Part shown: in pieces, positions 242 to 27,907 of the stretch
Numbering within the stretch: the first letter of the stretch is position 1
Layout: the number at the start of each line of letters is the position of its first letter
Virus record (IMG/VR): IMGVR_UViG_3300031992_004563
Coordinates: 265,798-329,797 of that record
DNA length: 64,000 nucleotides
Source of the DNA: a virus
Lineage: Duplodnaviria > Heunggongvirae > Uroviricota > Caudoviricetes
Reading direction: 5' to 3' (one strand)
The notes under the pieces: generated by a model
Database searches by the model: none
The model's input: only the letters and a program-made list of their open reading frames with translations
What the model was told of the DNA's origin: nothing
Position numbers and translations under genes: made by a program

Positions 242-1234
242 ATGCGATCAGAAATTAATCAAAACAGCATATTATTTTTAACTGCAAGTGAAGATACATC
301 ATATGGTTATCTAGATGGAAACAAATATATTTGGACAATGGGAACATTATATCCAACTAACAGTTATGATGAAATTATCAAAGATAATGAAGAAGTTATT
401 GCAACTTCAATAACAACAATGGCAAACACTTTAGGATTAAACAGTAGCCTTAATGTTGAATGGAGTGAAGAATCTGGTTTAACTGAAGATACTATTAAAG
501 CTGCTATAGAGGACATTGCAAAAAACAAACAAGATGTATTGATAACTGGTCAAAATATTTCAATCGATGCTTCTAATAATATATCTGCAGAAGGATATGT
601 ATTTAATATAATAAATGGTGCATTTGCAGAAAAATATAAACAACTTCCAAATGAAGGTGGCCAAATAGTATCAAATATTATTAGTCAATCTGGATCACAT
701 GCCGAAGGTTATAATACAGAATCTTTAAATTACGGAAGTCACTCTGAAGGATATAAAACTAAAGCATTAGGCGTAGGTTCTCACGCAGAAGGACAAAGCA
801 CTGAAGCAACTGGAAATTATACTCACGCTGAAGGCTCTTTAAATGTAGCTTCCGCCTTGGCTGCTCACGCAGAAGGCTAGAGTTCAACTGCTTCTGGCCA
901 AGGTTCTCACGCAGAAGGTCTTCGAACAGTTACATCTAACACAGTCGCTCACGCAGAAGGCGAATCAACAACTGCTTCTGGTCAAGGTTCTCACACAGAA
1001 GGTAAAGGCACAACAGCATCTGGTTTATTATCACACGCTAAAGGCTTTAATTCAACGGCATCAGAACAATGTTCTCACGCAGAAGGCTATAATACTTCAG
1101 CATCAGGACACTCATCACACACTGAAGGTTCTCGTACAATTGCATCTAATGAATGTGAACACGCGCAAGGTAATTGTAATGTATCACATAAAAATTCAAA
1201 TACCTATGGTGATGCAGGAAACACAATAGATTAA
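242..1234 (+). CDS. Tail-fibre-like repetitive protein, about 14-aa repeats (xSHAEGxxTxASGxG); read through an in-frame TAG at 878-880
   Basis: ATG at 242 follows an AT-rich intergenic region. Frame 2 is open from 242 to TAA at 1232-1234 apart from one TAG at 878-880. The SHAEG-type repeat continues unchanged across the TAG. Confidence 0.5.
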
Positions 1235-1252
1235 CTTGGTATTGGACATTTA

Positions 1253-1444
1253 TTGAATGATGTTCCTCAAAGAAAAAATGCAATTGAAGTAATGCAAAAT
1301 GGTGACTACTATTTATATGGTGTAGGTGGTTATCAAGGAACTGATACGAAAGTTCAAAATGCTTCAATTTTAACATTACAAGAATACATTGTATCACTTG
1401 AAGCACGTATTGCTGCATTAGAAGGTAACACTCCAGTATCATAA
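1253..1444 (+). CDS. Short coiled-coil/fibre C-terminal-like ORF (…QEYIVSLEARIAALEGN) in the same frame as 242-1234, separated only by TAA 1232-1234; TTG start in ORF track
   Basis: Same frame (2) as the upstream repeat protein. The heptad-like C-terminus resembles fibre trimerisation segments. Could be a separate small gene or the 3-prime part of a disrupted fibre gene. Confidence 0.3.
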   Translation: MNDVPQRKNAIEVMQNGDYYLYGVGGYQGTDTKVQNASILTLQEYIVSLEARIAALEGNTPVS

Positions 1445-1626
1445 TTCAAATAATGCATAATAACAAAATAATGGGATTCCAAAAGATTCCCATTATTTAT
1501 TTTTCATTTGAACAAAAATATATAAAAAGTAAACATTTATTATTCAAAAAATTAACGGTTCAGATCATCTATTATATAGATCTATTTCCAGATCCATTTG
1601 ATCTGCTTCTAGATAATATAGTATAT

Positions 1627-2448
1627 TTAGTGGCATTTTTCTAATCCTTCTTTAACAGATATGTATTTATTTAATATATTTGGAATACTAAAATCAACTT
1701 CTTGATCTGGATTATCTTTATCTCGTTTTTTATCTGTTAATACATATGCTCGTCCATATAAATCCGCAAATTCTTTAATTGTTATTTTTTCCGGATTGAC
1801 ACAATTATACAATCCTCCATTTTTATTTCCGGCTTCTATAATTCCTCTTACTGCATCATCAATATATGTAAAACATCTTGTATTTTGTCCATTATTATAT
1901 AATTCAACCCAATCTAAATGTTTTAAACACCATAATAAAGTGTCTTTTCTTGGTTCTGGTCCATATACATTATGAAGTCTTACTCCTGTTGCATATGGTG
2001 CATAAATTCTTGCAAAATCTTCATTGAATCTTTTGCTTAATCCATATAATGAAGTTGTGTTATTATTATTTGCGGTGCTGCTTGATGTATAAACCAGTTT
2101 AATTCCACGTTCATTACATATTTTAGCAAGTTTAACAAACGCTATTATATTATCTTCAACAATTGCATCTAAATCATTATTAAATACGCTTGTTTGTGCA
2201 GCCAAATGATAAACAATATCTATATTATACAAATTAATTAAAAATTCTATATGATTGACATCCATTCCGTGTTTTTTGTCGACTTCATATATATTTGATG
2301 TTGGATATGATTCTCTAAGTTTTTTAACTAATTCTTTTCCTATAAATCCATCACTTCCAGTCACAATAATATTTCTTTTTGCATTGTCATTTGGCATCAT
2401 TATCAATTCAGTATGTGAGTCATTAAATGTGCAATCCAAAACACCCAT
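1627..2448 (-). CDS. NAD-dependent epimerase/dehydratase (extended SDR family)
   Basis: Rossmann motif IIVTGSDGFIGKEL and a YxxxK catalytic motif (YGLSK). The 26-aa extension before the Rossmann motif suggests the true start may be the internal MM at residues 17-18. Confidence 0.7.
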   Translation of the reverse strand: MGVLDCTFNDSHTELIMMPNDNAKRNIIVTGSDGFIGKELVKKLRESYPTSNIYEVDKKHGMDVNHIEFLINLYNIDIVYHLAAQTSVFNNDLDAIVEDNIIAFVKLAKICNERGIKLVYTSSSTANNNNTTSLYGLSKRFNEDFARIYAPYATGVRLHNVYGPEPRKDTLLWCLKHLDWVELYNNGQNTRCFTYIDDAVRGIIEAGNKNGGLYNCVNPEKITIKEFADLYGRAYVLTDKKRDKDNPDQEVDFSIPNILNKYISVKEGLEKCH

Positions 2449-2451
2449 TGA

Positions 2452-3036
2452 CTAAAATATTTCACATTTATTATCTATTGTTATGAATTTTTGATTTGGA
2501 TCATTAGAATATTTTTTAAATGCATGACGCATTATAAATTGTTCTGAATTTTTTAGATTTTCAATATTTAAAAACTCTAATGATTCTTGATAGAATTTTT
2601 TAAGTGCTTCTTTTTTGCCTATACAGCATCCTGCATTAAAATATCTATATGGTCCTAAATGAATTCTATTTGGAATGCAATCAATAAAAACATCTGGATA
2701 ATTATTACATGATGGATTATATATAATGTCATAACCAATCCTTAAATACTTATCTACTATGTCATCTAGATGTGTCAAGAGAACATCGTAGCCATCTAAA
2801 AATAAAACATATTCTTGATCTATTTTTTCTAATGTATCTAAGAAAAATCTTATTTTATTTGGCATATACCATTGCTGTGTAGTATCATAATCTTTTGGAA
2901 CACAATTAATCAATGGAATATTATATTTTTTGCATTGTTGAAATAAACAGCAATCTTCGTCAGAAGTCCATGTAGAAATAATTGCCAATTTAGATTTATC
3001 ATAATTCGCATTAACTTGATGCTCATTGAAAATCAT
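2452..3036 (-). CDS. Hypothetical protein, possible nucleotide-sugar transferase (DGYD/DxD-like motif); ends in TAG, same frame as the epimerase ORF
   Basis: 194-aa ORF. Its stop is TAG (2452-2454) and the downstream epimerase ORF is in the same frame. A fusion by TAG read-through cannot be excluded from sequence alone. Confidence 0.4.
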   Translation of the reverse strand: MIFNEHQVNANYDKSKLAIISTWTSDEDCCLFQQCKKYNIPLINCVPKDYDTTQQWYMPNKIRFFLDTLEKIDQEYVLFLDGYDVLLTHLDDIVDKYLRIGYDIIYNPSCNNYPDVFIDCIPNRIHLGPYRYFNAGCCIGKKEALKKFYQESLEFLNIENLKNSEQFIMRHAFKKYSNDPNQKFITIDNKCEIF

Positions 3037-3617: not shown

Positions 3618-3620
3618 TAA

Positions 3621-3648: not shown

Positions 3649-3654
3649 TTTCGT

Positions 3655-3700
3655 GGATCTAGTGGGATTCGAACCCACGTGTTACATATGTTCCAACCTG
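3655..3700 (-). tRNA. tRNA-like 3-prime half (T-arm GTGGG-TTCGAAT-CCCAC plus acceptor strand and an encoded CCA). No matching 5-prime half or anticodon arm could be folded.
   Basis: The minus strand reads …GTGGGTTCGAATCCCACTAGATCCA. The T-arm is canonical and close to that of the tRNA-Arg at 13159-13232. The complementary 5-prime acceptor strand GGATCTA was not found upstream. Confidence 0.3.
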
Positions 3701-4140
3701 CTTTCTACATGTTTAGTTTGATTTAATTTTCGTATATTGCTAAACCTCAAACTAGCCAACAATATCTTAAGCTATTATAATTTCAAATTTGTTTAATAGC
3801 ATCACAAATTCTAATATCCAATATTTCTGCACCACTATAATCAATTCACCCTTGGATTATGGGTTTGAGTGATGTATGGTGAAATTACCTTGTAACTTCA
3901 TTAAGCGTGATCTTACTGTACTTCAGATCAAGCAGCCATAGCGTATTCATCTTCGCCATTTATTATTTTCAAAGAACATTTATTAGACGCATATCTTTAT
4001 GGCGTCACATGCTTACAAATCAAAATCAATGCAGTCAAAACCAAATAGACCCATAATTTTAATTTATATATTTATTATAAACAAAAACTGTAAAAAGTTT
4101 CAAAAATAAATATAAAAATAAAAATTTATTTTTGAATAAA

Positions 4141-4443: not shown

Positions 4444-4450
4444 TTAAAAT

Positions 4451-6601
4451 ATGTCAAAAAAATATACAAATAAAAGTAAATTATTAGGAAAGATTGGCAC
4501 TGAAAATTATAGAGTATCAAATTGCCCAGTACATTTACCTAAAGAAAATGTCAAGTTTTTTATGGCAATGCAAGATGCAGGAAATAAAGATCCATTTTCT
4601 TCTAATACATGGAGTAATCAAATTACGCCTGATTGGATGAAACCATTTCATGAATCTGTTGTATCTGCAATTTCTAAAGGAATTAAAAATGCATTAAATG
4701 AATCAAATGGTCTTGTGTCTGAAGAAGAATGTCTAAGAGCAAATTTGGTTTGTTTATATGATCATTCAGAACAAAATAATTTCTTTATTATTAAAAATCC
4801 TAGTGTAGAAGATATTAAAGAAATTGGAACATTTCATGATAGATATTATTGGCATAAAAAGGATACAGACGATAAAAAAGATCGTTTGATTGCTGATATG
4901 ATACAATGGGCGTTTTATAATATTAAATTAGATGGGTTAACTAGTATAGAATATGATGATGAAAATGTTAATTTATGTAGTTTTGGTTTAAAAAATGATG
5001 AAGAACTTTATAAATCTGTATATAAATTATATTTAGATAAAGATTAGTGGGCAGATAGTTCAAAATTATTAGATAGATTAAAATATGTTTTAAATATGAT
5101 TGATCAAAGTGTATTAAATAAACGAGATCATTATGGTTTTGGACTTGGTACACGTTTGTCTTTCATTGAATATTTTTTTAAAGAATATAAAGAAAATTTA
5201 GAACGATATAATACAAAAGACGATAAAGATTATTATTTAAAACGCATAAAAGAAAAGGAACAAATATTGTCTTCATATGATTCATTTAAATCATATATGA
5301 AAGATTAGGTTAAAAAATCTGTATGTGCTGGTGATTCTAGTAGTGCTACACTATTATTGAATTTAAAAACTGAATAGATTTTTGATCAAGCACCTAAAAC
5401 AATAATTCATTTTATAAAAACATTTCAAGAATATAAAGATGAAATGTATAAAATTTTAACCGAAGATCATAAATTAAAAGAATCTCAAGAATTTGATTTT
5501 AATTCTTTATTAAATGAATCACAAGTAAATTTAGCAATTGATGATTTTGATTATAGTGATGCATCAATAAATAATGTAAAATCTGATATAATTGATGTTA
5601 ATGATGTCATTAAACATAGAATTGAATTAAATAAATTTAATGAGTTATGTGAAAAGGTAAGTGTTTTCAATATCACTTCTAATGAATTTTATCAAATTTG
5701 TAAATTACATAATTAGTATGGTTTTAAATATACTGTAAAAGCAGGCACAGATGGCAATGCTGAAGAATTATCAGAATTAATTGAATACATTACAAAAAAT
5801 ATTGATACAGAAGTTGATTTAAACTGGATTGATGTTACTTAGATAACTGATATGTCTTATCTTTTTAATAAATCATAGTTTAATGGTGATATTTCAGAAT
5901 GGGATGTTTCTAATGTAAAAGATATGGCACATATGTTTGACCAATGTGCATTTGATGGAACATTCTCAGATATTTCTGGGTGGGATGTTTCCAAAGTTGA
6001 ATGGTTTGATGGAATGTTTTCATATTCGCCATTCAATAAACCAGATATTTGCAACTGGAATATGAAAAATGCTCATAGTACGACTGGAATGTTTACTGAT
6101 TCAGTATTCTGTCAAGATATTTCAAATTGGAATCTTCCATTAGGATGTGATGTAACTCATATGTTTAGCGCAGATTTCCCACAAAGTTATAAGCCAAAAG
6201 TTATTAAAGACATAATTAAAAAAGCTAAAGACGAATTCGATGAAGATGTTGAAGATTAGGAATCATTTGAAGATGAAAGAATTCGTAATGGATATGATGA
6301 TGACACAGATGATTCGTATAATGATGAAGATGATTCAGATGTTAATGAAGGATTTGTATTTGAAGGCGAATGTGCAGGAGATTGTGGTGGTGTTTCAGGA
6401 TCTTATAATATACCAATGAATACTGTTGGTGTTGGAAATATTGTTCCTGCTGGTACACCCGCAATGACAGGATCACAACAAGCAAATGATTCTTAGAATG
6501 GTTCTGGTGATATTACCATTCCCACATCGTCGAAGAAAAAATCAAAAACTAAAATAAAAGAAAAAGAAACTTTATACTTTCCTATCGCTGTCAAGAAATA
6601 A
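4451..6601 (+). CDS. BspA/DUF285-type repeat surface protein (repeat FNGDISxWDVSxVxxMxxMF) with an acidic C-terminal region; 8 in-frame TAG codons
   Basis: Four track ORFs (4451, 5096, 5444, 5924) all lie in frame 2 and are separated only by TAG codons (5045, 5306, 5381, 5714, 5840, 5876, 6257, 6494). There is no TAA or TGA in frame until 6599-6601. The DUF285-like repeats are clear in the 5924-6259 segment. Confidence 0.6.
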
Positions 6602-6699: not shown

Positions 6700-7440
6700 A
6701 TGAAAAATATTAGTAAACAAATATTAGAAGCTGTACATAGAGGTATTCAATTGGCACTAGATGATATAGAAAATAATGATTTAAATAATTCTATATCATC
6801 TAAAAATGATATCATAGATAGTGAAGATTATATTACAAATAAAATAAAGTTTGAAAAATTATCTAAACAAATTCATAAATATTTAGATGATTCATTATAT
6901 ACAAGTGAAAATGAAAAATTAACATAGGCAATATTTGATATAGCAGAAATATGTAAACATTTTCCATTTAAATTTAAAGTTTCTACAGAATTTGAGCTTA
7001 TATATATTATTGATGTATTAATAGTTAATGACCCTGAAATAAATTTAAATTGGGTAGATACATCTAATATAACCCTTATGAAACGATTATTTATGAATAA
7101 AAAATTCAATGGTGACATTTCAAAATGGGATACATCTAATGTAATTAGTATGGATAGTATGTTTTATGGATCTACATTCAATGGTGATATTTCCAAATGG
7201 AATGTATCTAAAGTTAAAAATGCTAATCAAATGTTTGCACATTCAGATTTTAATTCACCTATTGGAAATTGGAAATTTAAATCATTGCAATCTGGCGATG
7301 AAATGTTTTGGGGAACAAATTTTAACCAAGACATATCAGAATGGGGTGATTATATATCAAAAGATGAAACAATAAGAGATTTATTAGTTGGTGCTAATAA
7401 ACTTAGAAAGTATAATAGGCCAAAGGGCTATAATATTTAA
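6700..7440 (+). CDS. Second DUF285/BspA-type repeat protein; one in-frame TAG (6925-6927)
   Basis: ORFs 6700-6927 and 7078-7440 share frame 1 and are separated by a single TAG with no other stops. Repeats FNGDISKWDTSNV…MF, FNGDISKWNVSKV…MF and FNQDISEW are present. Confidence 0.6.
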
Positions 7441-7859: not shown

Positions 7860-8261
7860 ATGAACGTTAATTTACAAAAGTTTATTGAAGAACATATGCT
7901 TCCAAAAAATGAAAAACCCCTAAATGAAGGTGAAATGCTTTAGGAAGATGTTCTTAATGAAGATGATGTTAATGAAGCAAATGAGTCAAAGCCAATGACA
8001 GAAGAAGAGCTCAAAATTGAATCATTAAAAATTGCTACTAATATTGCAAAGTTGATGTCTGATGTAACTACTGATGATATTATTACTATTGCTGATAAAG
8101 TATCAGGTTTTATTCGTGATCACCAAATTGGTTCTGAAGAAACTAAATCTGAAGAATCAGATGTAGCTGCTGATTTAGAATTACCATCTGATGAAGAAAG
8201 TTCTGAAGAAAAACCAGAAGAATCATCTGAAGAAAATAAAGAAGAAAATTCTGCTGAATAA
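7860..8261 (+). CDS. Paralogue of 7473-7823 with an acidic Ser/Glu-rich tail; one in-frame TAG (7941-7943)
   Basis: ATG at 7860 is in frame 0 with the track ORF 7995-8261. The shared motif LKIESLKIATNIAKLMSDVTTDDIITIADKV matches the upstream gene. Confidence 0.5.
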
Positions 8262-8266: not shown

Positions 8267-8926
8267 ATGGCTAAGAAAAAGAAAATAGAACATCCATTTA
8301 CAGTTGTTTATGTATATGCTCCTGAACAATATAAGCAAGCATATATGGAAGGCAAAGAAATTCCTCGAGTAAAAATTGGGGAAACATATGCTGATGCAAA
8401 TGATTGTCAAACCTGTATGGAAGCTTCTATGAAAAGAATTAATCAATAGTCAACTTCTTTTGAAGAATATAATTATTTGCTTCAATGGTTTGTATTTCCA
8501 TTTAAAGAAGGAACTGATATTGCTATTAGAAAAATTCTTACTGAAAACATTTATCATTTATCATCGTCTGCTAAGATAGATAATGTTAATGATATGAAAA
8601 TTAAAAGATATGGCGAAGATAAACGCCAATCTAAAATTGGTCAAGAATTTGCATATAAAGTTTCTATTGCACAAGTTAATACGGCAGTATCTGCATATAA
8701 ATTAAAAGCAAAAATGGAAGAACTTATAAATGACAGAGGAATTGATCCTGCATTTAAAGTCAGACTTCGAGGAATTATAACAGATATGCTGGAGAATCTT
8801 GATGATGTTGTTAAAGAATCTAAGGATTATTATGTTGAATTAAATGATATTGAAGATAATCATATTATTCACAAAAAACGCTCCAGATTCAATTTTGAAG
8901 AAGATAATATAGATTTTAATTATTAA
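8267..8926 (+). CDS. Hypothetical protein with a T5orf172/GIY-YIG-like N-terminal segment (VVYVYAP…KIGETY); one in-frame TAG (8447-8449)
   Basis: ORFs 8267-8449 and 8477-8926 are both in frame 2 and are separated by one TAG. Confidence 0.4.
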
Positions 8927-13141: not shown

Positions 13142-13158
13142 AATTTTGTAATTTTTTG

Positions 13159-13234: not shown

Positions 13235-14005
13235 TTAATTTACTTTATATAAAAGTTTTTTCTTTTCATTATATCTCCAAAATTCACAATGTAATTTATT
13301 GATTATATAATTTTGCCTGTTTATGTCTCTTTGACATAAAATATTTTCATCTACATTTTCATAATGTGTAGATTCATCATATTCAAATGCAATATTTAAA
13401 TCTTTATCATAACCATCTAAAAAATATCCAGCTACTTCTATTTCCCCACCATTTTCTGCATGCTATAAATTCCAATGTTTTTCTTCATTTAATTTATTAA
13501 TATATTCACATCCCCTTTTAGAATACCTACATTTATATTTCACTTTGCATGATTTAAGATATTTTATAGTATTTAATCTTATTTTTTCTTTTTCTTCATC
13601 TGTCCATTTATGCCAATTTTGTGTCCATTTTCCATTAATATAATTTTCTTTTCTTTTTTCTACCTATTTTTTAACTCTTTCATCATTTTCAGATGTTAAT
13701 CCTTTATTCCATGCTATATGCCCTACTGTATGTCCATGATTTCCAGGATGAATTTTTCTATTTGGGTTTTCTTTACATCTATTTATATGAAATGTAATAC
13801 CAGATTTAGTAGATTTTATTTCATTATTACAATATGGACAAGTATTTGTAATTATCTCTTTAGTTCTTTTTGATATAGATTTAGTAATATTATCACACAC
13901 TACTTTATTCTTTTCATAATTTGGATTTAACTTGCAATGTGTAGAATGTCCAGCCAATTTATATTTAGATTCAAATTCTTTATTACAATATTTACATTTA
14001 AACAT
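13235..14005 (-). CDS. Homing-endonuclease-like protein (N-terminal zinc-finger/HNH-like Cys-His motifs, C-terminal YxLDGYD…NIAFEYDE nuclease-like segment); two in-frame TAGs (13664-13666, 13463-13465)
   Basis: The track ORF 13664-14005 ends in TAG. The same frame continues without TAA or TGA through a second TAG to TAA at 13235-13237, 3 nt before the tRNA-Arg 5-prime end. Motifs CKYCNKEF…HSTHC and HPGNHGH are present. Confidence 0.5.
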
Positions 14006-18006: not shown

Positions 18007-18031
18007 TTATTAAAAATAATTAAATTTGAAT

Positions 18032-18060
18032 AAAGGCATATTTTATTAAAGTATGCCTTT
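18032..18060 (+). terminator. Hairpin terminator (AAAGGCATA…TATGCCTTT)
   Basis: Inverted repeat directly after the ATPase stop codon. Confidence 0.5.
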
Positions 18061-18101
18061 ATTTATGTAAAATAAATATAAAAAATATTAAATAGAAAAA
18101 T

Positions 18102-19127
18102 ATGTCATCTATATTTAATGGGCAATTTGGAAAAAATACTACAGATGATCAAAAACGTACATATCAATGGCATGAAGATCAAGAGACACGATCAAAATAC
18201 CAATATAAAGAAAGATATAAAAGTATAAATATTTCCAAAATATTAGAAGATAAAATTCCATTAACAAGTGGTGGATATATAACAATTAAACCTGCAGCTA
18301 TTGCAGATGATGTCAAGTTAATGATGGATGAAATGAGGCGAGATCCAAAATATGAATTTATTAAGCCTTATATTCAAAAACCTGTTATTTGGACATATGA
18401 AATAGGTGCAGCATTAACAGATGGTATTCGTATTTATATGTCACCAATATTTGCAGCAACATTACTTAGTTCAAATCCTAGAACTGGTATGGGTGGTAAA
18501 GAAGCAGATGAATTTTGGAATAATTTAAATCCTACCGAACAACGTGATTCTAAAAACCGTGCACAATTCAGAATGATGAAAACTAAATATGTTAGATTTG
18601 CAATTATTCATGAAGTTTATCATATCATATATAATCACGTTAGACGTGGTATTCTTAAATATGGTTCAAATCCAACTAAACAAGAACATGATGTTGGTAA
18701 TATTTCAATGGACCTTGAAATCAATAGAGATATTGAATCAACTTTTCCAGATTTAAGAGGCTCAACAGAAAAAATTGGTGCAATATGGTATATGCATGAA
18801 AAATTCTTTAATAAAAATGGTAAGCCATTTATTAAAGATATTTGGGAAGATATATGGGATGATTTTATGAATAGAAATAAAGATTTTGATCTTTCTGATC
18901 CATTTGCAAATGAAGGAGCAAATCCTGTTCAAGAAGATAAAACTAAACAAGGCCCATTTGCAGATGGTTGGAGAAAAGCTGTTGATGCAATTAAAGGTAA
19001 AATGATTGATCCACGAACATTTAATATACCGGGTGGCTCTGGTACAATTAGTGGAAATATTAAAGACGCTTTAGACCAAATATTTAAAGCTGCCGCTGAA
19101 GGAAATGGTGTAGAAGATGAAGACTAA
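18102..19127 (+). CDS. Putative zinc metallopeptidase-like protein (HExxH: FAIIHEVYHIIYNH)
   Basis: 341-aa ORF without TAG. The HEVYH motif lies in a helix-like context. Its position between the AAA+ ATPase and the VWA protein recalls DUF2201-type metallopeptidase+VWA proteins that pair with MoxR ATPases. Confidence 0.5.
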   Translation: MSSIFNGQFGKNTTDDQKRTYQWHEDQETRSKYQYKERYKSINISKILEDKIPLTSGGYITIKPAAIADDVKLMMDEMRRDPKYEFIKPYIQKPVIWTYEIGAALTDGIRIYMSPIFAATLLSSNPRTGMGGKEADEFWNNLNPTEQRDSKNRAQFRMMKTKYVRFAIIHEVYHIIYNHVRRGILKYGSNPTKQEHDVGNISMDLEINRDIESTFPDLRGSTEKIGAIWYMHEKFFNKNGKPFIKDIWEDIWDDFMNRNKDFDLSDPFANEGANPVQEDKTKQGPFADGWRKAVDAIKGKMIDPRTFNIPGGSGTISGNIKDALDQIFKAAAEGNGVEDED

Positions 19128-19147: not shown

Positions 19148-21727
19148 ATGAAAAAAGAAAAGATTAATACTGATAGATTATTTGGAAAGCCTTTAAACGA
19201 AACAGACATTTATTAGGTTCCACCAACAGATGAAAATGGAAATGTTCATATGTTTTCAATTGATTAGCTTGCTGCAATTTATGAAGCAATGAAGCCATTA
19301 TTAAATGCATAGGAATTATAGGATTTTAATGATATGTCTCCTGAAGATTAGGAACAATATTTAACAGGCTTTGGTGCAAATATATTAGAATGGAAAAAAG
19401 CTAAAGAAGCAGCAAATGATCCTGACTCAGACGAATAGAAACCTGGTATGCCAGGACAACAACCACCAGAAGATGGTTTAGACCATTGGCAACCAGTAAA
19501 AAAATCAAAAAATAAAAGTCAACAAGGATAGCAACCAAAAGGCAATAAAGTTTATTCAGATATTCAAGAAGAACTTGATAAAATTGAATAGGAAAATCAA
19601 TAGGCTGAATAGGATGCAGAAAATAGTAACAATCAATCTGCTGATAGTAGTGATGCATAGGATATTGCAGATAACGCAAATGATATTGCATCTTCTGCAC
19701 AAAAAATGGCAGATGCAGCTTAGGCCGCTGCTGATGCTGCACAAAATGCGGCAGATTAGGCAGATGAAAATGCTCGTGATTCCGGCTCACCAAAGGATGT
19801 AAGAAATGCTGATAGATCTTAGAATTCAGCAGATGCTGCATAGGATTTAGCAAATCAAGCAAAAGAAGCAGCTGAAAGAGCATCTCAATTAGCAAAGGAT
19901 GCATAGGAAGCTGCTGATAGAGGTGATACATTAGAAGCTGAAAGAAAAACTAAAGAAGCGTATGATGCGGCTAAAGAAGCATCTAATAAAACTAGAGCCG
20001 CATAGATAAATGCAAAAGATGCATTAAATGCAAGTAAATAGACAGCACAAAATCAACCTGGCCAAAATGGTCAAGGACAATCAGGTCCAGGTCAAAATGG
20101 TCAAGGACAATCAGATAGTGATATTAATAATATGTCTGCATAGGATGCTGCTAATGCTGCTCAACAATCTGCTACAAATGCTCAAAATTAGGCAAATCAA
20201 GCATAGGCAGCCGCTGATGCAGCATAGGAAAAAGCAGATACATCTGGAAGTTCGGCTGATTAGGCAAAAGCAGATGCGGCTCAATAGGCAGCCGATAATG
20301 CTCAATCAGCTGCTGATTAGGCATAGGCCGCTGCTAATGCTGCTCAACAGGCAGCCGACAATGGAAATACATCTTCAGCACAACAATAGGCAAAAAATGC
20401 AAGAGATGCTGCAAATAGTGCTCAACAATATGCTCAGTCTGCTCAATAGAATACTGGACAATCTGGTCAACAATCTTCACAAATGTCAGGAGGCGAATCA
20501 GGTCAGAAAGGACAAAACAGTGAATAGGGTTCTGGCCAAGAATCTAATTCACAAGGCCAAAGCCAAGCTGGTTCAAATTCAGGTCAATTAGATCCAAATG
20601 GACGTCATGGATAGATTGGTAAACCTGGACAATAGGGCCAACAAGGACAACCTGGTGATATGGATGATGCCGATACAGACCCAACATTAAAAAAGGTTGA
20701 TAATAAATTTGACCAAAATGGCGAAATTGTTCATAAAAGGCCTGTAAGTCTTGATATGCCATTTGATGGAAATGATTTTGTTGCAAATGATGAAGAAATG
20801 AGAGAAAAATGTCGTGAAATGGCAGAACGTGCAGGTCAGCCACTTGACGCAGATGATTATATTTCTCCACAAGAATATGCTACAAGAAAATATCAAGAAG
20901 CAAAATCTGCATTACAAAAATGGAAACAAAATACACCTGGTTCTGCTGGTAATCCTCCTGGATATCTTACAGAAGTAATGGATAGATTATTTGCTACAGA
21001 AATTGATTGGCGTGATTTAGTTCAAGAATTTATGACAGATAAATCACCTGAAGATATTATTGATGTATGGTCTAAACGCCGTATGGGATTGCCTGATACA
21101 CACCCATTCCATAGAGGAAGATATTTGCATCCTTATGAAGATTTTGAAGAAAGAAGATCAGGTATTGCACAAGTATTCTTCTTAGTGGATGCATCTGGTT
21201 CTATGGGTGTAACTGCAGGTGATGGCAGAAATATATTTGAACATATTATGTCAGAACTTATTCAAATTGAATTATAGGTTAAAATTAAACGTTCTGCATA
21301 TGCAACATTTAATGCTGGTCATATTTATAGAGATGATATTTTCACTTGGACATATCAAGATGCAATGGATGAAGAATCATTAATGGAAGAATTTAAATTA
21401 CCTTCTGCTGGTGGTGGAACATCTGCAATAGAGGGTATTAAATCTATTCAAGAATATGAAGATGTATATAGTACAAATGACCCATGGACATTATTAATTG
21501 TAGTAACTGATGGTGGTGACTATTATGAAGGATTAAAAGATATTTGTAAAGACCCAGAATAGGTTGAACATATGTTATGGATTATAACAGCCGAAGGCGA
21601 AGATTATTTTAAAGGCAGAATTAAAGCTTTAGGTGAACAAGGTGTTCCTAGTGATCATATTGTATGTGTAGATATTAATAAAGAATGGGGTGTAGATGAA
21701 GAAATGGTTAAAAAGAGCAAAAGATAA
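19148..21727 (+). CDS. von Willebrand factor A (VWA/MIDAS) domain protein with a long N-terminal Ala/Gln-rich low-complexity region; about 40 in-frame TAG codons
   Basis: ATG at 19148 is in frame 2 with track ORFs 20660-21277 and 21365-21562, and there are no TAA or TGA codons until 21725-21727. The MIDAS motif VFFLVDASGSMG is present. TAG codons replace CAA/CAG in parallel AAQ-AADNA repeats. Confidence 0.65.
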
Positions 21728-21796: not shown

Positions 21797-23752
21797 ATGA
21801 AGAGAAATTTAAATGAAAATGCACATTTAGACGAAGGTGTAAAAATTTGTGTATCTGAAATTCGTAATGATGATCAATCAATGGATTGCAATGAATTAAG
21901 AGATATCTTTGTTGAAGAAGGTGCTGAAGTAGAAGGCAGTCATGGTTTTTATGATGGTGCGCCTGCAACATTCATGACAGTTTACAATTTAAATAAAGAT
22001 AGAGTTGTAGAAATTCTTCAAGATTTTTTAAATGCATCTGAAGATGTAGCTCCAGCAGAAGACTATATTCAAGAAGATGAAGAATTAGAAAACGATTTTC
22101 CTGCATATGAAGACGTTGAAGCTGAAAATGATTTAGATCCTGAAGAAGATGCATTAAATGACGAAGCATTATTAGAAGGTGATAATATTCTTGATGATGC
22201 TAAAGAAGAATTAAGAGATGTATTATCACGTATAGATGATGAGATTTATCTTAGTTATGATGGAATTGTATTGGATACTGTTTTATCAGATGACAATTTA
22301 ACCGTATATTCTATTGATTCTGATGGTAATATGGAAACTAATGAGGAAGATATTGTAAATGCATTTGATTTAACAGATGCCGATGATATCTTTACATTAT
22401 GTGACGTTATTAAAGATGCTTTAGAATTTGATGCTCAATATCCTGCATATGATGACGTTGATATTGATGACGATGAATAGCCACGATTTGAAAAAATGAA
22501 ACGTCATGGTCGTCTTGATGAAAAGAAGAAAAATGATTGTTGCCCAGGTACAGGTAAAGTAAATGAGGCTGAAGCAATTGATGCAGTATTAACTGATATT
22601 GATGCACAAGTTTTAAATGAGTCTAAAGAAGCTGAAGCTAAAAAACAAAATGCATTAGAAGTTAAAACTTTAAAAGCATTATCTGAAAATCAACATTCAT
22701 TACATTCTAATATTAGTTATAATGGCAAAACATTTGATAAGATGACACTTAAAGAGTTAAAGAATTTATATGAAACTGTTAATGCATCTGTTGAAGAATT
22801 AACTAATAAAACACTTAATGAAAGTGCAATAGATGAAAAATTATTAAACACAATTAATAATAAGAAACAACTTCTTAACTATCTTGATGAAGAAATTACA
22901 TACAGAACAACTCGTATGGAATGCTTAAAGAAACTTAATGAAGATGGCGCTGAAATTTCTGATGAAGAATTAAAGAACTTATTTGGACCAGCACAAGGTG
23001 AAGAAGAAACACCTGCTGAAAACAAAGAAGAATCATCTAAGGAAAATAAAGAAGAAAGTTCAGAAGAAAACAAAGAAGAATCATCTGATGAAAATTCAGA
23101 AGAAGATGGTGAAACTGTTGAATTATCACGTATTGTAATTACATTAAAAGATTCTGAAGCCGCAAATGATTTAAAACAAGCTTGTATTGAAGCAGAAATT
23201 CCAGAAGATGCATTTGAATTAGAAAATGTTGAAGAAGAATCAGCAACTGAAGATGAAGAAAATTCAGAAGAAAATAAAGAATCTGATGAAAATTCAGAAG
23301 AAAATTCAGAAGAAAACACTGAAGAAAATGCAAATGAATCTTATGAATATGCTAAATATGTTAAGTATTTAATGGAAGGTGAAATTCCTACAGAAGAACA
23401 ACCTGCAGAAGAAGCTCCAGTCGAAGATCAACAACCAGAAGAAAATGCTGAAGAAAATTCAGAAGAAAATAAAGAATCTGATGAAAATTCAGAAGAAGAT
23501 GAAGAAGATAAACAACCTAAATTTATTTTAACTAATACAGATTATGCATCTAAATTAGCTAAAGTATTAGAAGATGTTTATGGAATTTCTAAAGAAGAAT
23601 TCGAAGAAATGGTTGGTGGTAAAATTGTAGAAGAAGATTCAGAAGAAGAAAACAAAGATGAAAATTCTGAAGAAAATAAAGAAGAAAGTTCAGAAGAAAA
23701 TAAAAATGATGAGGAAGAAATTGATCCATCAGATTTATTTAAAAATCTCTAA
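21797..23752 (+). CDS. Hyperacidic repetitive protein (ENSEENKEES repeats); one in-frame TAG (22478-22480) joins the two track ORFs
   Basis: ORFs 21797-22480 and 22496-23752 share frame 2 and are separated by a single TAG. D/E content is extreme. Confidence 0.45.
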
Positions 23753-24149: not shown

Positions 24150-25241
24150 ATGGCACAAACTAGATTTTTTCAACATTTAAATGAGAATGAAAGTGATTTT
24201 CAAAAAGTGACTACATTGGAATATATTGATAATTCTGATGGTTTTTCTATGTATTATTTTAAAGATGGATCTAAATGTAATAAAACTTATATTGCACCTG
24301 TAAATGCTAATTCAATTGAAGGATTTGAATTTGCAGAGGTTACAAGTCCTGGTAATGTATGGAAACTAAAAAAAGTTATTCCTGTGCAAGAAAAAAGGCA
24401 AACAGCTGTTAATGCAGATGGTGTTTTAGTAGAAGCTCCTACATGGGAAGAATTTACAAATAGTAAAGCAGAACGTAAAACACGCGTAGATGTTTTAGGA
24501 AAACCATTAAAGGTTGATAATTATGAAATTCCAAATGATAGTGATTATTCTGTACAAGCTTATATGGATGCATTAAAAACAAAACCTAAAACTGCACCTG
24601 TACCTGCGCCTGCACAATCATTTGATTTTAATAATGATACACAAAAATCTGCAAAAAAAGTTGAAACACAAAAGCCTGAATTGCTTAATAAACTTGCTGA
24701 AGTATCAGTTGTAGATGATACAATGTATATTTATATGGATCCATTTATAAAAAATGTTAAAAATGTTGAATTTATTTTTGAAAACAAAAATCGTTGTGAA
24801 ATGACAGCCGATGAGTTTATAGATAATGCATTAACACCAAAAGAAGAAAAAGTTGTTGAAAAAGTCGTTGAAAAAGAAGTTGTAGTTAAAACATCTGATA
24901 CAGATATTGATCTTGGAATTGATAATGTTCAAAAAGGTTTATTAGACAATATGATTGATATGTCTAATAAAATGGAATGTGCAATTGATATGGAATTAAC
25001 TTTAAAACTTCCACCATCATCTGTTTATAAACTTATTAAATCGGTTTATCCTGAAGGAATGGATAAAGGGTTTGTTAATATTCTTGCAAATAGAATGCAG
25101 GTTAAAGAGCTTAAAGAATCTGTGGCTGAAGGATTATTAGCATTTTATGACGATGAATATAATAATGAAGATTCTAATAAAAATAATGGTAATGATTCTA
25201 ATATTACCGATACTGTTAAAAAACCAGGTCGTAAAAAATAG
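24150..25241 (+). CDS. Hypothetical protein; ends with TAG then TAA two codons later
   Basis: 363-aa ORF. TAG 25239-25241 is followed by ACA GTA TAA. Confidence 0.5.
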   Translation: MAQTRFFQHLNENESDFQKVTTLEYIDNSDGFSMYYFKDGSKCNKTYIAPVNANSIEGFEFAEVTSPGNVWKLKKVIPVQEKRQTAVNADGVLVEAPTWEEFTNSKAERKTRVDVLGKPLKVDNYEIPNDSDYSVQAYMDALKTKPKTAPVPAPAQSFDFNNDTQKSAKKVETQKPELLNKLAEVSVVDDTMYIYMDPFIKNVKNVEFIFENKNRCEMTADEFIDNALTPKEEKVVEKVVEKEVVVKTSDTDIDLGIDNVQKGLLDNMIDMSNKMECAIDMELTLKLPPSSVYKLIKSVYPEGMDKGFVNILANRMQVKELKESVAEGLLAFYDDEYNNEDSNKNNGNDSNITDTVKKPGRKK

Positions 25242-25292
25242 ACAGTATAATATTTCATTATAAATAATAAAAATCATTTTTTAGTTTTATTA

Positions 25293-25763
25293 ATGAATAC
25301 AATATATATGACATCTGATAGTGAGAATAAGTTGAGGTCAATATATACAAATTTAAAAAACTATTATATATTAGATGTATAGTCTTTTATAAAAAGTTTA
25401 AATTTGGATATGAATAAACAAAGTAGTATATTCATTATTAATGATGAAATACAAACTTTAGTGAGTTCATAGTTGAAACTTAAAAAATATAAAGGTGTCA
25501 TATATATTAATCATCATTTATCAAAAGAATTATACAATTCATTTAAACTTTATTTTTAGAAATGTGGAGAAGATATTAAAATTGTCTTAATTGACAATGG
25601 ATAGTTTCCAAAGCATTAGGATATAATGGATATATTTGATGAAGTTATTTTCTATGAAAGATTTAGAAAAAATAAAATCGTAGAATTTAATGGTTTTGAT
25701 AAAAATCAAAATGACGTCATTAATAATATTAATATGGATGAAAATGATTTAGGCGATGAATAA
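25293..25763 (+). CDS. Small hypothetical protein with 5 in-frame TAG codons
   Basis: ATG at 25293. Frame 0 is open to TAA 25761-25763 apart from the TAGs. TAATG overlap with the next gene. Confidence 0.4.
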
Positions 25764-27907
25764 TGAAATACTTTACATTTGAATAGTTTAGTCGTTCTGA
25801 TACAGCAAAAAGGAAAAATATAGATAATTCTGTTCCGTCTGATCTTAGACCACATGCTGAAGAATTAATTAATAATATATTAGATCCTTTACGTGATGCG
25901 TGGGGTAGTGATTTATATTTAACCTCTGCCTATCGTGGTTATGCACTTAATAAAGCTGTAGGTGGTTCTACGACATCTGCACATTCTTATGCGTATGCAG
26001 CTGATTTAGTTCCAAAAAATGGAAAAACTCTTGAATTTAAAGAGTTTGCAATGAAATGGCTTCTTAATAATGGAGTCAATTTTGATTAGTTTATTGATGA
26101 ATATAGTGGAAAAAGTTCATGGGTTCATATAGGTATTCGTAATGGTAGTGGAAATTAGAGAAAACAATATTTAAAATACCTTAATGGAAAATACACATCA
26201 ATTAATCCAAATATATATAAGCCTGGTTCTAACTCACAATCTTCTACGTCATCTGCGTTACCAAGTTTTGGTGGTTCATCTTCTAGTTCTTCACAATCAA
26301 CAGGAATTAATGTTACTGAAATAACAACCGGTGGCAGTACACAAACTGGTAGCACTGAAGGATTATTAAAAGGTCGTTCAGTCTATTTAAAAGATATAGA
26401 TTATGAAGGCATTAAAGCAAACGATGTTTTTGCAAAAGATGAATCAGGTGAGCCATTGCTTGATGAAAATGGAGATTTTATTATTTCTGACGCATATTTA
26501 ATGGATGGTGCAAATGAATCTGAATCTGATGCTATTGAAAGCACTGATGAATTAGATCCAGAACCATTTGATTTTGATATGTCATCTATTACTATTGAAA
26601 ATACTGAATAGATGAAAGGCATTCAATATAATGCCGATGGTTCATATGTTGTTAAATAGAGTAAAACCATTCAAGAAATAATGGCATTAGTTCAACAATG
26701 GTGGCAAATGATTCAATCTTTAAAGAAAATTGATTTTAAACATATTTAGGATTCAATTAAAAACGTAAAAGCAGAGACTGAAAATGCAGAGACTCCATCT
26801 ATTAATGCAATGGTTTATATGAAAGCAGCATTCGATATGTATGGACATGCATATAGAGAAGGAATGACTTGCCCAATTTGTGGAAAGAAAGCAAGATTTT
26901 TACCACCTGGTGGATATTGTTCCATTGAGTGTTTGTTAAAAGCTGTAAAAGATAAATCACTTGCATTTCTAATGTCTCCTAATGATAAGTATGGTTGGCT
27001 TCAAGAAATTATTGATCAATTATGTGCGGTATTGGATTTAACAAATTTATTAATTAATTCAATAGTATTAATTCCTGACATTATTAGAGAATTGGCATAG
27101 CTTCCATAGGAATATAAAGATTATGTATAGGCAAAAATTGCTGAAGGGTTTGCAGAATTATAGGAATTAATTCAAAAAGCAATGGTTAAGAAAAATGAAT
27201 TGCTTGCAAAAATATTAAAACCTATTAATTTTGGTATTATTGCAAAACCTGTTGCAATGGCAATGCAGGTAATTGAAGTTATTAGAAATGCATTATAGGT
27301 TGCATAGGAAGCATTTAATATGGCATTTGATGTTGTTAAAATGATATTAAGTAAATTATCATTACCAAGTGTTGCACCAGGATTAGTTCTTCCAGCAGAA
27401 TCATTTGCGTGGTCATTAACTCCAAGATCATTTATAAGCCCAATGCCATATACATGCCCAGATGCAGGTAAAATATTTGTGGTTTTGCCTGGTGGCAGCG
27501 GTGCACCTATACAGGGTTTAAAACCTTTGTTGCCATCAGCACTATAGGATCTTAATATGGAATCAATAGATTCAGTAATTTAGGGATTATTTCCACCATT
27601 AACGCCAATGGATTATTATTTAGAGCCAGAATTATTTCAAATAAGATATCTGTTCAGTGATCAAAGTGATTTAGTTTTTTAGATTAGGCAACAATTAGAA
27701 GATTTTTTAAGATGCGGTCCAGATTATCTTCCAAAATTTGAAAATTTATTACCAATTAAAATGTTTACATTTGGAAAAGGCACACCTAATGAAATATAGA
27801 TTCCACTTCCAAATATGGGATATTTATGGTTTTTATTAGGATTACTGGATGCATGGGCACCTCATAGCCAATCAATGGTAGGAAGTATATTAAATCCTGC
27901 AATATAA
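25763..27907 (+). CDS. Large protein with an N-terminal peptidase M15 (D-Ala-D-Ala carboxypeptidase/lysin-like) domain; many in-frame TAGs; candidate tail-associated lysin or tape-measure-like protein
   Basis: Motifs LTSAYRGYALNKAVGGSTTSAHSYAYAADL match the Zn-dependent M15/VanY-type fold. Track ORFs 26810 and 27320 and the TAGs at 25784 and 26087 are all in frame 2. Terminates at TAA 27905-27907. Confidence 0.55.

What the first reader, a model, noticed from the sequence alone, without database searches (positions are those of the whole stretch)
242..27907. TAG is read as a sense codon (most likely Gln) in a subset of genes: genetic code 15-like recoding
At least 14 genes are open over hundreds to thousands of nt in a single frame but interrupted by TAG, never by TAA or TGA. 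These are 242-1234, 4141-4443, 4451-6601, 6700-7440, 7860-8261, 8267-8926, 13235-14005, 19148-21727, 21797-23752, 25293-25763, 25763-27907, 27967-28296, 37307-38425 and 61450-62283. Sequence repeats continue across the TAGs, for example the SHAEG repeat at 878 and the DUF285 repeats at 5876. In the Ala/Gln-rich region of 19148-21727, TAG sits in repeat positions where CAA/CAG occur in parallel copies: GCG GCT CAA TAG GCA GCC GAT AAT versus GCT GCT CAA CAG GCA GCC GAC AAT. This indicates Gln. True stops in these genes are TAA or TGA.
Basis: seen in the sequence. Interest (0 to 1): 0.9.

Follow-up and report, generated by a model that had tools for sequence, protein, structure and literature searches.

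The report
TAG read as glutamine, Lak-like megaphage

Summary
All 14 listed frames are interrupted by TAG only (1-33 times) and never by TAA or TGA. I count 82 in-frame TAGs in 18 genes.

Glutamine is strongly supported:
- In three syntenic relatives, window TAGs align to TAG (62), CAA (34) or CAG (3). The reverse comparison gives the same pattern.
- A substitution-profile likelihood puts Gln 97 log units ahead of Glu.
- Two of three TAGs in the M15 lysin domain fall on Gln columns that are nearly invariant in distant endolysins. The third falls on a Glu column.

The window belongs to a 497,886-bp metagenomic contig. Its major capsid protein is 63.6% identical to Prevotella phages Lak-A/B/C, for which code 15, a tRNA(CUA) and RF2 are published.

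TAG use is gene-specific: 75 in the left 28 kb and 7 in the right 36 kb. It is dense in a lysin-like gene and its neighbours. It is absent from the metabolic and nucleic-acid genes and from the capsid gene.

No tRNA(CUA) or release factor lies in the 81 kb of this genome I could read, so those parts of the mechanism are inferred.

Verdict: a new member of a known kind, of low to moderate interest.

The parts
242..1234 (+). YadA-head-like repeat protein (HAEG repeats), 330 aa, 1 in-frame TAG (at 878)
   Evidence: public gene call of the same 330 aa
1627..3123 (-). Glycosyltransferase (GT_PLOD) fused to an NAD-dependent epimerase, 498 aa, 2 in-frame TAGs.
3651..4052 (-). Phage-encoded tmRNA, tag peptide GEDEYAMAA. 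Context feature, not part of the recoding claim.
   Evidence: Rfam RF00023, 81 bits
4141..4443 (+). Hypothetical protein, 100 aa, 1 TAG
4451..6601 (+). DUF285 repeat protein, 716 aa, 8 TAGs
   Evidence: PF03382, 4.9e-29
6700..7440 (+). DUF285 repeat protein, 246 aa, 1 TAG
7860..8261 (+). Acidic hypothetical protein, 133 aa, 1 TAG
8267..8926 (+). Hypothetical protein, 219 aa, 1 TAG
13235..14005 (-). C2H2 zinc-finger protein that sits next to tRNA genes, 256 aa, 2 TAGs. Lies next to tRNA-Arg(tct) at 13158-13232.
15232..19127 (+). AAA ATPase (924 aa) and a 341-aa partner protein. Both are TAG-free, directly upstream of the most TAG-rich gene.
19148..21727 (+). Ala/Gln/Asp-rich protein with a C-terminal VWA-like (DxSxS) domain, 859 aa. 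33 TAGs against 59 CAA and 4 CAG.
21797..23752 (+). Acidic hypothetical protein, 651 aa, 1 TAG
24150..25250 (+). Hypothetical protein, 366 aa, 1 TAG three codons before the stop. That position is TAG in two relatives and a Gln codon in the third.
25293..25763 (+). Hypothetical protein, 156 aa. 5 TAGs against 3 CAA.
25763..27907 (+). Protein with an N-terminal Peptidase_M15_3 / endolysin-like domain, 714 aa, 16 TAGs. Codons 109 and 132 fall on conserved Gln columns.
27967..28296 (-). Small hydrophobic protein, 109 aa, 2 TAGs. The TAG at codon 3 is conserved in all relatives. Candidate lysis-associated membrane protein (inferred).
29798..30877 (-). Secreted protein with a TAG as its penultimate codon followed by TAA. 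The pattern is conserved in 3 of 4 lineages.
28490..61450 (-). Almost TAG-free block, mostly on the minus strand: thymidylate synthase, C5 DNA methylase, AGT-like glucosyltransferase, RNA ligases, CCA-adding enzyme, NAPRTase, isochorismatase, PTH2, Band_7.
37298..38479 (+). Hypothetical protein, 393 aa, 2 TAGs.
58500..58955 (-). Zinc-ribbon-like protein, 151 aa, 1 TAG at codon 7. The start is uncertain.
61450..62283 (-). Protein of 277 aa with 3 TAGs and weak RNA 2'-phosphotransferase / PARP-like similarity
62406..64000 (-). Major capsid protein (Gp23 family), cut by the window end. The full gene is 623 codons (to about 64277) and has 0 TAGs.

Best explanation
The window is part of a ~498-kb Lak-like megaphage genome that uses genetic code 15. 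TAG is a glutamine codon, used alongside CAA and CAG, and only TAA and TGA end genes.

Shown here:
- TAG-containing frames are real genes. They are conserved and under purifying selection.
- TAG is interchangeable with CAA/CAG and corresponds to Gln.
- TAG use is concentrated in particular genes: the lysin-like gene and its neighbours, surface-repeat proteins and the VWA-like protein. It is absent from nucleotide, DNA and RNA metabolism genes and from the capsid gene.

Inferred from published work on Lak phages and from my scan of Lak-A2, not shown for this genome:
- The phage encodes a suppressor tRNA with anticodon CUA, presumably charged with Gln by the host GlnRS as in supE-type amber suppressors.
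- It also encodes its own RF2, which keeps termination going at TAA and TGA.
- Early in infection the host RF1 stops translation at TAG, so TAG-bearing genes give only truncated products. The M15 lysin would stop after 7 residues and the small membrane protein after 2.
- Once the suppressor is expressed, these genes are translated in full. This would act as a timing lock on late and lysis functions.

A gene with 33 TAGs needs about 98% read-through per codon to give 50% full-length product. Reassignment late in infection must therefore be nearly complete, which implies that RF1 is outcompeted or neutralised (inference).

The confidence of 0.88 is for the whole statement. For TAG = Gln alone it is about 0.95, and for the inferred switch and timing about 0.7.
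For: Coding and TAG-only interruption:
- 14 of 14 frames have TAG only and no TAA/TGA. Coverage gains are specific to TAG-as-sense.
- 41 full-length homologues at 47-95% identity.
- Amino-acid identity downstream of the first TAG equals that upstream. Among differing codons, 41-86% are synonymous in the closer relatives.
- In gene 19148-21727, 23 of 33 inter-TAG segments contain no ATG, and some segments are 1-3 codons long.

Gln:
- Window TAG aligns to TAG 62, CAA 34, CAG 3, and never to TAT, TAC, TGG, TTG or TCG. The reverse comparison gives TAG 62 and CAA 36.
- CAA differs from TAG at two positions, so mutational proximity cannot explain the swap.
- Log-likelihood: Gln -187.8, next best Glu -284.8.
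- In 74 distant standalone M15 endolysins, codon 109 is Q in 67 and codon 132 is Q in 63.
- Q-rich repeats just outside the window carry TAG at Q positions.

Lineage:
- The contig is 497,886 bp. Its MCP is 63.6% identical to Lak-A/B/C. Window GC is 29.4%.

Machinery in the family:
- Lak-A2 carries two tRNA(cta) genes, one tRNA(tta) and an RF2-type gene, all in TAG-free surroundings.
- Published for Lak phages: PMC6784885, PMC8346664. Timing model: 10.1101/2021.08.26.457843.

Gene specificity:
- chi-square 197, 63 d.f., p = 1e-15. There are 75 TAGs in the left 28 kb and 7 in the right 36 kb.
- The lysin domain matches PHROG endolysin family phrog_894 at 3.6e-31.
- The TAG at codon 3 of the adjacent membrane protein is conserved.
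Against: - No tRNA(CUA), release factor or GlnRS was found in the window or in the 17 kb flanking it. The remaining ~417 kb of the contig could not be read.
- 13 of 51 published Lak genomes lack a detectable tRNA(CTA) (PMC8346664).
- M15 codon 8 is a conserved TAG where 72 of 74 distant homologues have Glu.
- The major capsid gene, a typical late gene, has no TAG. The two genes upstream of the 33-TAG gene also have none. A simple rule that late genes are recoded does not fit.
- No expression or proteomic data exist for this phage.
Confidence: 0.88

Rival explanations
1. The TAG-interrupted frames are pseudogenes or assembly/sequencing errors in a decaying genome.
For: Frames with many internal stops look like pseudogenes under the standard code.
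Against: - Only TAG interrupts the frames, never TAA or TGA.
- The same genes are full length in 41 homologues and in three syntenic contigs from independent samples, and many TAGs sit at identical positions.
- Sequence downstream of the TAGs is as conserved as upstream, with an excess of synonymous changes.
Confidence: 0.01
2. TAG is a true stop. Each inter-TAG segment is a separate small gene, or the products are meant to be truncated.
For: A few TAGs sit where re-initiation is conceivable. In 1627-3123 a Met lies two codons after the TAG at codon 225, between the GT and epimerase domains. The penultimate TAG of 29798-30877 may once have been the real stop.
Against: - Single domains span TAGs. 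The M15 domain covers codons 1-159 across three TAGs, and the DUF285 domain also spans TAGs.
- Segments of 1-3 codons occur, and 23 of 33 segments in one gene have no ATG.
- TAG swaps with CAA in relatives.
Confidence: 0.02
3. TAG is a sense codon but encodes something other than Gln (Glu, Lys, Tyr, Trp, Ser, Leu or pyrrolysine), or is decoded ambiguously.
For: - M15 codon 8 is a conserved TAG where distant homologues have Glu in 72 of 74.
- ARAGORN labels any tRNA(cta) as 'Pyl'.
- The better-matching Lak-A2 tRNA(cta) resembles tRNA-Gln(ctg) only slightly more than tRNA-Met (68% against 67%); the second tRNA(cta) is closest to tRNA-Lys.
Against: - The Gln profile is 97 log-likelihood units better than Glu and more than 110 better than Lys.
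- No alignments to Tyr, Trp or Leu codons and none to TCG, though four fall on other Ser codons; only one to AAG.
- Two invariant-Gln columns are matched.
- Published inference for Lak phages is Gln (PMC6784885, PMC8346664). Code 15 has been confirmed by metaproteomics in crAss-like phages (PMC9523058).
Confidence: 0.04
4. TAG is read through without a dedicated phage suppressor tRNA, for example by near-cognate host or phage tRNA-Gln after RF1 is inactivated.
For: - No tRNA(CUA) lies in the 81 kb read from this genome, although in Lak-A2 both copies are within 3 kb of the tmRNA.
- 13 of 51 Lak genomes lack a detectable tRNA(CTA) (PMC8346664).
Against: - Only 16% of the genome was examined.
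- 33 TAGs in one gene need about 98% read-through per codon, which near-cognate decoding is unlikely to reach.
- Most Lak genomes do encode tRNA(CTA).
Confidence: 0.07

Closest known systems
Prevotella phages Lak-A1/A2/B1-B9/C1 and the wider Lak megaphages (proposed order 'Grandevirales'), genetic code 15
   Same: - Genome of about 0.5 Mb with low GC.
- T4-like Gp23 capsid protein whose best match is Lak (63.6%).
- TAG used as Gln, with large TAG-free regions next to TAG-dense ones.
- Phage tmRNA and tRNA genes.
- The AAA / VWA-like / M15 block is syntenic with Lak-A2, though inverted (PMC6784885, PMC8346664).
   Different: - Much more divergent than the published 'Lakviridae', which share 72 core proteins at 70% identity or more (PMC11165621). 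Here the MCP is 63.6% identical and most other shared proteins 27-59%. Only 23 of 68 window genes find any Lak-A2 match.
- The contig is 498 kb with ~29% GC in the window. Its closest relatives are ~491-kb contigs from other metagenome assemblies.
- The tmRNA is not next to a tRNA(CUA).
- The capsid gene is TAG-free.
TAG-recoded crAss-like phages and other alternatively coded gut phages (Ivanova 2014; Borges et al. 10.1101/2021.08.26.457843; Peters et al. PMC9523058)
   Same: TAG is reassigned to Gln. Recoding is concentrated in lysis and some structural genes. The host is presumed to use the standard code. A suppressor tRNA plus release factor is the proposed switch.
   Different: These are unrelated phage lineages with genomes about five times smaller. 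There, the structural and lysis genes form one recoded module. Here, recoded and non-recoded genes are interleaved.
E. coli supE (glnV) amber suppression
   Same: A tRNA-Gln-type tRNA with a CUA anticodon inserts Gln at UAG in competition with RF1 (established knowledge).
   Different: supE suppression is partial and affects a host with normal TAG stops.

Membership tests
Genetic code 15 (TAG = Gln) stop-codon recoding in phages | Conserved ORFs interrupted by in-frame TAG only, never by TAA or TGA | tested here: met
Genetic code 15 (TAG = Gln) stop-codon recoding in phages | TAG positions align with Gln codons or residues in homologues | tested here: met
   Aligned to TAG 62, CAA 34, CAG 3. 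Log-likelihood Gln -187.8 against Glu -284.8. Two of three M15 sites fall on invariant Q columns and one on an E column.
Genetic code 15 (TAG = Gln) stop-codon recoding in phages | TAG is not used as a gene terminator | tested here: met
   All 68 gene models close on TAA or TGA. Only one gene has a conserved TAG one codon before its TAA. This is partly by construction.
Genetic code 15 (TAG = Gln) stop-codon recoding in phages | The genome encodes a suppressor tRNA with anticodon CUA | tested here: inconclusive
   None in the window, in 6.7 kb to the left or in 10.4 kb to the right. The remaining ~417 kb could not be read. Lak-A2 has two.
Genetic code 15 (TAG = Gln) stop-codon recoding in phages | The genome encodes RF2 and not RF1. 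This is common in Lak phages but not universal among recoded phages. | not testable with these tools
   No release factor in the window. An RF2-type gene is present in Lak-A2. The search for this lineage's copy was swamped by near-identical Lak variants.
Genetic code 15 (TAG = Gln) stop-codon recoding in phages | Peptide evidence for Gln at TAG | not testable with these tools
   Needs metaproteomics. This has been done for crAss-like phages only (PMC9523058).
Lak megaphages (order 'Grandevirales') | Marker proteins (MCP, terminase) group with Lak phages | tested here: met
   The 15 best MCP hits are all Lak at 63.4-63.7% identity. The next best is 39% over a partial match and ~30% at full length. 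No tree was built.
Lak megaphages (order 'Grandevirales') | Genome above ~460 kb with GC of ~26-31% | tested here: met
   Contig of 497,886 bp. Window GC 29.4%.
Lak megaphages (order 'Grandevirales') | Family 'Lakviridae': 72 core proteins shared at 70% amino-acid identity or more | tested here: inconclusive
   MCP is 63.6% identical and other shared proteins 27-59% to Lak-A2. This suggests the phage lies outside the family as defined. I do not know which window genes are among the 72, and the GC31 subfamily was not available for comparison.
Lak megaphages (order 'Grandevirales') | Host is Prevotella | not tested
Pyrrolysine decoding of TAG | pylT, pylS and pylBCD genes present, and TAG at Lys-like or Pyl sites | tested here: not met
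   No such genes in the window. TAG aligns with Gln, not Lys.

The most novel reading that the evidence does not exclude
The phage tmRNA, and possibly the PTH2 peptidyl-tRNA hydrolase and CCA-adding enzyme in the same window, may be a working part of the code switch.

In Lak-A2 the tmRNA lies 1.9-2.8 kb from both tRNA(CUA) genes. If RF1 is neutralised late in infection, ribosomes would stall at UAG on host messages, and on phage messages when suppressor tRNA is limiting. They would then need rescue. This is what happens at unassigned UAG codons in RF1-deleted recoded E. coli (PMC6207430). A phage tmRNA with its own tag (GEDEYAMAA) could handle that load.

Separately, this lineage may be an undescribed family-level branch of the Lak order whose suppressor arrangement differs from that of Lak-A.
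Probability: 0.15. Interest if true: 0.6.

Novelty: new member of a known kind. Interest (0 to 1): 0.3.

Why it matters
Practical point: this sequence must be annotated with translation table 15. Under table 11 at least 18 genes are split or truncated, including the lysin-like gene, surface-repeat proteins and the VWA-like protein.

Scientific points:
- It extends the evidence that TAG means Gln to a Lak-like lineage far from the well-studied GC26 clade. For groups outside that clade, the 2021 survey said there was too little information to tell how TAG is translated (PMC8346664).
- It sharpens the regulatory picture. TAG is dense in the lysin-like gene and is conserved at codon 3 of the neighbouring membrane protein. 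It is absent from the capsid gene and from two genes in the same apparent operon as the 33-TAG gene.
- This argues for selection gene by gene rather than a simple split between early and late genes.

None of this changes the accepted view of phage stop-codon recoding.

Tried and rejected
1. Megablast of 24 kb of the window against GenBank phages found no match. The lineage is too divergent at the DNA level.
2. A scan of IMG/VR for relatives of the M15 protein found none.
3. Local synteny with Lak-A2 near the capsid gene gave only 5 hits in 100 kb. I then fetched the whole Lak-A2 genome. The AAA-to-M15 block is there, but inverted and only ~30% identical.
4. A PDB sequence search with the M15 domain gave one weak hit that did not cover the TAG sites.
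5. The hunt for this genome's tRNA(CUA) failed:
   - ARAGORN with introns and relaxed thresholds, plus Rfam at E <= 1, on the window and both flanks found nothing.
   - Walking further was blocked because only window proteins or search results can be looked up.
   - The RF2 search returned only ~99%-identical GC26 Lak variants.
   - The search with the tRNA-associated C2H2 gene returned no protein from this contig.
6. A base-context effect after TAG was rejected. G follows TAG in 52% of cases against 27% after CAA (p = 4e-5), but the effect disappears when the Ala/Asp-rich 33-TAG gene is left out (p = 0.24).
7. SPF and GGQ tripeptides in 57579-58391 hinted at a release-factor relative. No Pfam hit appeared even at E = 0.5, so I treat this as chance.
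8. The tRNA identity of the Lak-A2 suppressor is weak evidence. Its best match is tRNA-Gln(ctg), but only by 68% against 67% for tRNA-Met.
9. The HAEG and DUF285 repeat positions holding TAG are variable, so they do not identify the amino acid.

Full report
**Observation.** The window has 29.4% GC. The opposite strand of the same intervals carries 5-68 TAA/TGA. Treating TAG as sense raises coverage by open frames of at least 600 nt from 0.59 to 0.75 and doubles coverage by frames of at least 1500 nt (0.16 to 0.32). Treating TGA as sense has no effect. I found four more TAG-bearing genes: 1627-3123(-), 24150-25250, 29798-30877(-) and 58500-58955(-). In four long ORFs the TAG lies upstream of the likely true start, so I did not count them. 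The curated total is 82 in-frame TAGs in 18 genes, against 588 CAA and 48 CAG over all 68 gene models. TAG is therefore more common than CAG.

**What the sequence is.** A TAG-free gene from the window is found, identical, on a 497,886-bp ENA metagenome contig (ERZ27257202 k141_6601451). The public gene calls on that contig already read through TAG, giving products of 330, 498 and 716 aa. The capsid protein belongs to the T4 Gp23 family. Its 15 best matches among GenBank phages are the Prevotella phages Lak-A1/A2/B1-B9/C1, at 63.4-63.7% identity. The next best are ~30% at full length, or 39% over a partial match. The window therefore comes from a Lak-like megaphage. It is a distant relative. 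No nucleotide-level match exists. Only 23 of 68 window genes find any Lak-A2 counterpart, mostly at 27-59% identity. The block from the AAA ATPase to the M15 gene is syntenic but inverted. Closer relatives, at 50-95% protein identity and fully syntenic, sit on contigs of 36, 140 and 491 kb from other metagenome assemblies.

**The frames are real genes.**
- The 16-TAG M15 gene has 41 full-length homologues.
- In the three syntenic relatives, amino-acid identity downstream of the first TAG equals that upstream. Among differing codons, 41-86% are synonymous in the two closer relatives. This is the signature of purifying selection on the frame.
- Domains span TAGs. The M15/endolysin match covers residues 1-159 across three TAGs.
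- In gene 19148-21727, inter-TAG segments can be 1-3 codons long, and 23 of 33 contain no ATG.
- Pseudogenes and split genes are therefore excluded.

**Which amino acid.**
- Of the 174 window TAGs inside pairwise alignment spans, 149 fall on an aligned residue rather than a gap.
- At the codon level they align to TAG (62), CAA (34), CAG (3), then GAT (10), AAA (8), GAA (6) and rarer codons. None aligns to TAT, TAC, TGG, TTG or TCG, and only one aligns to AAG. The reverse comparison (relatives' TAG against the window codon) gives TAG 62 and CAA 36.
- CAA differs from TAG at two positions, so the exchange reflects synonymy and not mutational proximity.
- I scored the TAG-aligned residues against the substitution profile observed for each amino acid in the same alignments. 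Gln scores -187.8, Glu -284.8 and Lys -300.0.
- As a check against distant homologues that are most likely standard-code, I ran a profile search of 1.84 billion representative proteins and aligned 74 standalone M15 endolysins at 32-57% identity. The TAG at codon 109 sits in the FDQ motif (Q in 67 of 74). The TAG at codon 132 sits in the QR motif (Q in 63 of 74).
- The third site, codon 8, is TAG in the window and in all three relatives, but Glu in 72 of 74 distant homologues. This is one unexplained exception.
- Just beyond the window, a Q/P/A repeat carries TAG at Q positions (QQPQQqAQPQQQ...AQqPAQQq, where q marks TAG).

**Distribution.** TAG use differs strongly among genes (chi-square 197, 63 d.f., p = 1e-15). 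Thirty-three genes with five or more Gln-type codons have no TAG, against a permutation mean of 14 and a maximum of 23. The left 28 kb holds 75 TAGs and 259 CAA/CAG. The right 36 kb holds 7 TAGs and 377 CAA/CAG.

TAG-dense genes:

| Gene | TAGs | Note |
|---|---|---|
| 19148-21727, VWA-like | 33 | 34% of its Gln-type codons |
| 25763-27907, M15 lysin-like | 16 | PHROG endolysin match 3.6e-31 |
| 25293-25763 | 5 | against 3 CAA |
| 4451-6601, DUF285 | 8 | |
| 27967-28296(-), small hydrophobic protein | 2 | TAG at codon 3 conserved in every relative |

TAG-free genes include thymidylate synthase, a C5 DNA methylase, an AGT-like glucosyltransferase, RNA ligases, a CCA-adding enzyme, NAPRTase, an isochorismatase, PTH2 and a Band_7 protein. 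This fits published descriptions of Lak genomes, which have large TAG-free regions and use TAG in structural regions (PMC6784885). It also fits the proposal that recoding locks late and lysis genes until the code switch (10.1101/2021.08.26.457843).

The fit is not perfect:
- The full 623-codon capsid gene, cut by the window end, has no TAG, although its neighbours do.
- The AAA ATPase and the 341-aa gene directly upstream of the 33-TAG gene have none.

**Machinery.**
- The window contains one tRNA (Arg-tct, 13158-13232) and one tmRNA (3651-4052, 81 bits, tag GEDEYAMAA). It contains no tRNA(CUA), even with intron-aware ARAGORN or Rfam at E <= 1.
- The 6.7 kb to the left and 10.4 kb to the right also lack one. 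No release factor or GlnRS is present.
- The remaining ~417 kb of the contig could not be reached with the available tools.
- I assembled the complete Lak-A2 genome (541,299 bp, 26.0% GC) from 12 fetched pieces. ARAGORN finds two tRNA(cta) genes (c144866-144938 and c145771-145845), one tRNA(tta) and a tmRNA (c142605-142997) that lies only 1.9-2.8 kb from the two suppressors.
- An RF2-type gene (SPY and GGQ motifs; Pfam PF03462 and PF00472; named RF2 by JGI) lies at about 287.2-288.4 kb.
- Apart from a 10-TAG GIY-YIG endonuclease between the two suppressor tRNAs, the genes around them and the RF2 gene itself are TAG-free. This is what the code-switch model predicts.
- These findings reproduce the published account (PMC6784885, PMC8346664). 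That account also notes that 13 of 51 Lak genomes lack a detectable tRNA(CTA).

**Mechanism and confidence.**
- That TAG is a Gln sense codon in this phage is, in my judgement, about 95% certain.
- The switch itself is inferred from the family and was not shown for this genome. It comprises a phage tRNA(CUA) charged with Gln, phage RF2, and host RF1 stopping TAG-bearing genes early in infection.
- A 33-TAG gene needs about 98% read-through per codon for 50% yield. Late decoding must therefore be nearly complete, which implies that RF1 is outcompeted or neutralised.

**Comparison and novelty.** The phenomenon is that already described for Lak megaphages and for crAss-like and other gut phages. 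It has been validated by proteomics in crAss-like phages (PMC9523058). The lineage appears to fall outside the published 'Lakviridae' criterion of 70% core-protein identity (PMC11165621), though I could not test that properly. For Lak groups outside the ~26% GC clades, the 2021 survey reported too little information to assign the amino acid (PMC8346664). The present data supply that evidence for one such lineage. I rate it a new member of a known kind, with interest about 0.3.

Noticed in passing
window 3651-4052 (-); Lak-A2 MK250019 c142605-142997: The phage encodes a tmRNA (Rfam 81 bits, tag GEDEYAMAA). In Lak-A2 the tmRNA (tag DDEIDFRMAA) lies 1.9-2.8 kb from both tRNA(CUA) genes. In this window that linkage is absent.
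   Followed up: partly
window 59789-60217 (-), 55363-56823 (-), 41662-43335 (-), 50570-51247 (-), 40688-41560 (-), 61450-62283 (-): A cluster of tRNA, translation and RNA-repair genes lies in the mostly TAG-free block: PTH2 peptidyl-tRNA hydrolase, a CCA-adding enzyme with an HD domain, two RNA-ligase-like genes, an AAA_33 kinase-like gene, and a weak Tpt1/PARP-like gene that itself carries 3 TAGs.
   Followed up: partly
window 13158-13232 (-) and 13235-14005 (-): tRNA-Arg(tct) sits directly downstream of a C2H2 zinc-finger gene. The Lak-A2 paralogues of that gene sit inside the main tRNA cluster and next to tRNA-Leu and RF2. The family has 384 homologues, many on Lak-size contigs. It looks like a mobile gene that travels with tRNA genes.
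   Followed up: partly
window 62406-64000 (-), continuing to about 64277 on the contig (L018 7174-9045): The major capsid gene is cut by the window end. The full 623-codon gene has no TAG, although genes on both sides use it.
   Followed up: yes
window 29798-30877 (-): A secreted protein ends ...W-TAG-Y-TAA. The pattern of a TAG as penultimate codon followed by a TAA stop is conserved in 3 of 4 lineages. It may be a former TAG stop with a backup stop one codon later.
   Followed up: partly
window 25784-25786 (codon 8 of 25763-27907): This TAG is conserved in all close relatives, but distant M15 endolysins have Glu there in 72 of 74. It is the one site that does not fit Gln.
   Followed up: partly
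window 27967-28296 (-): A small hydrophobic protein is encoded on the opposite strand immediately downstream of the M15 lysin-like gene. The TAG at its codon 3 is conserved in all relatives. It is a candidate holin-like or lysis-control protein, but has no family match.
   Followed up: partly
window 54190-55359 (-) and 56929-57576 (-): An NAD-salvage pair: nicotinate phosphoribosyltransferase and an isochorismatase/nicotinamidase-family protein.
   Followed up: no
window 43692-45071 (-) and 45075-46415 (-): DNA-modification genes: a T4 alpha-glucosyltransferase-like protein next to a C5 cytosine methylase.
   Followed up: no
window 31013-32965 (-) and 32999-33523 (-): A 650-aa SPFH/Band_7 protein with a long Ala/Glu/Lys/Gln-rich coiled region lies next to a small multi-pass membrane protein, an arrangement like an NfeD pair. 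The Band_7 gene is missing from the 491-kb relative (L007).
   Followed up: no
window 57579-58391 (-): This protein has SPF and GGQ tripeptides 55 residues apart, reminiscent of RF2, but no release-factor profile match even at E = 0.5. Probably chance.
   Followed up: yes
L018 219-3905 (contig, about window 67.5-71.2 kb, minus strand): A 1228-aa acidic protein upstream of the capsid gene ends in a Q/P/A repeat in which 5 TAGs occupy Gln positions.
   Followed up: partly
Lak-A2 MK250019 144969-145739 (-): A GIY-YIG endonuclease-like gene with 10 in-frame TAGs lies between the two tRNA(CUA) genes, while all other neighbouring genes are TAG-free.
   Followed up: no
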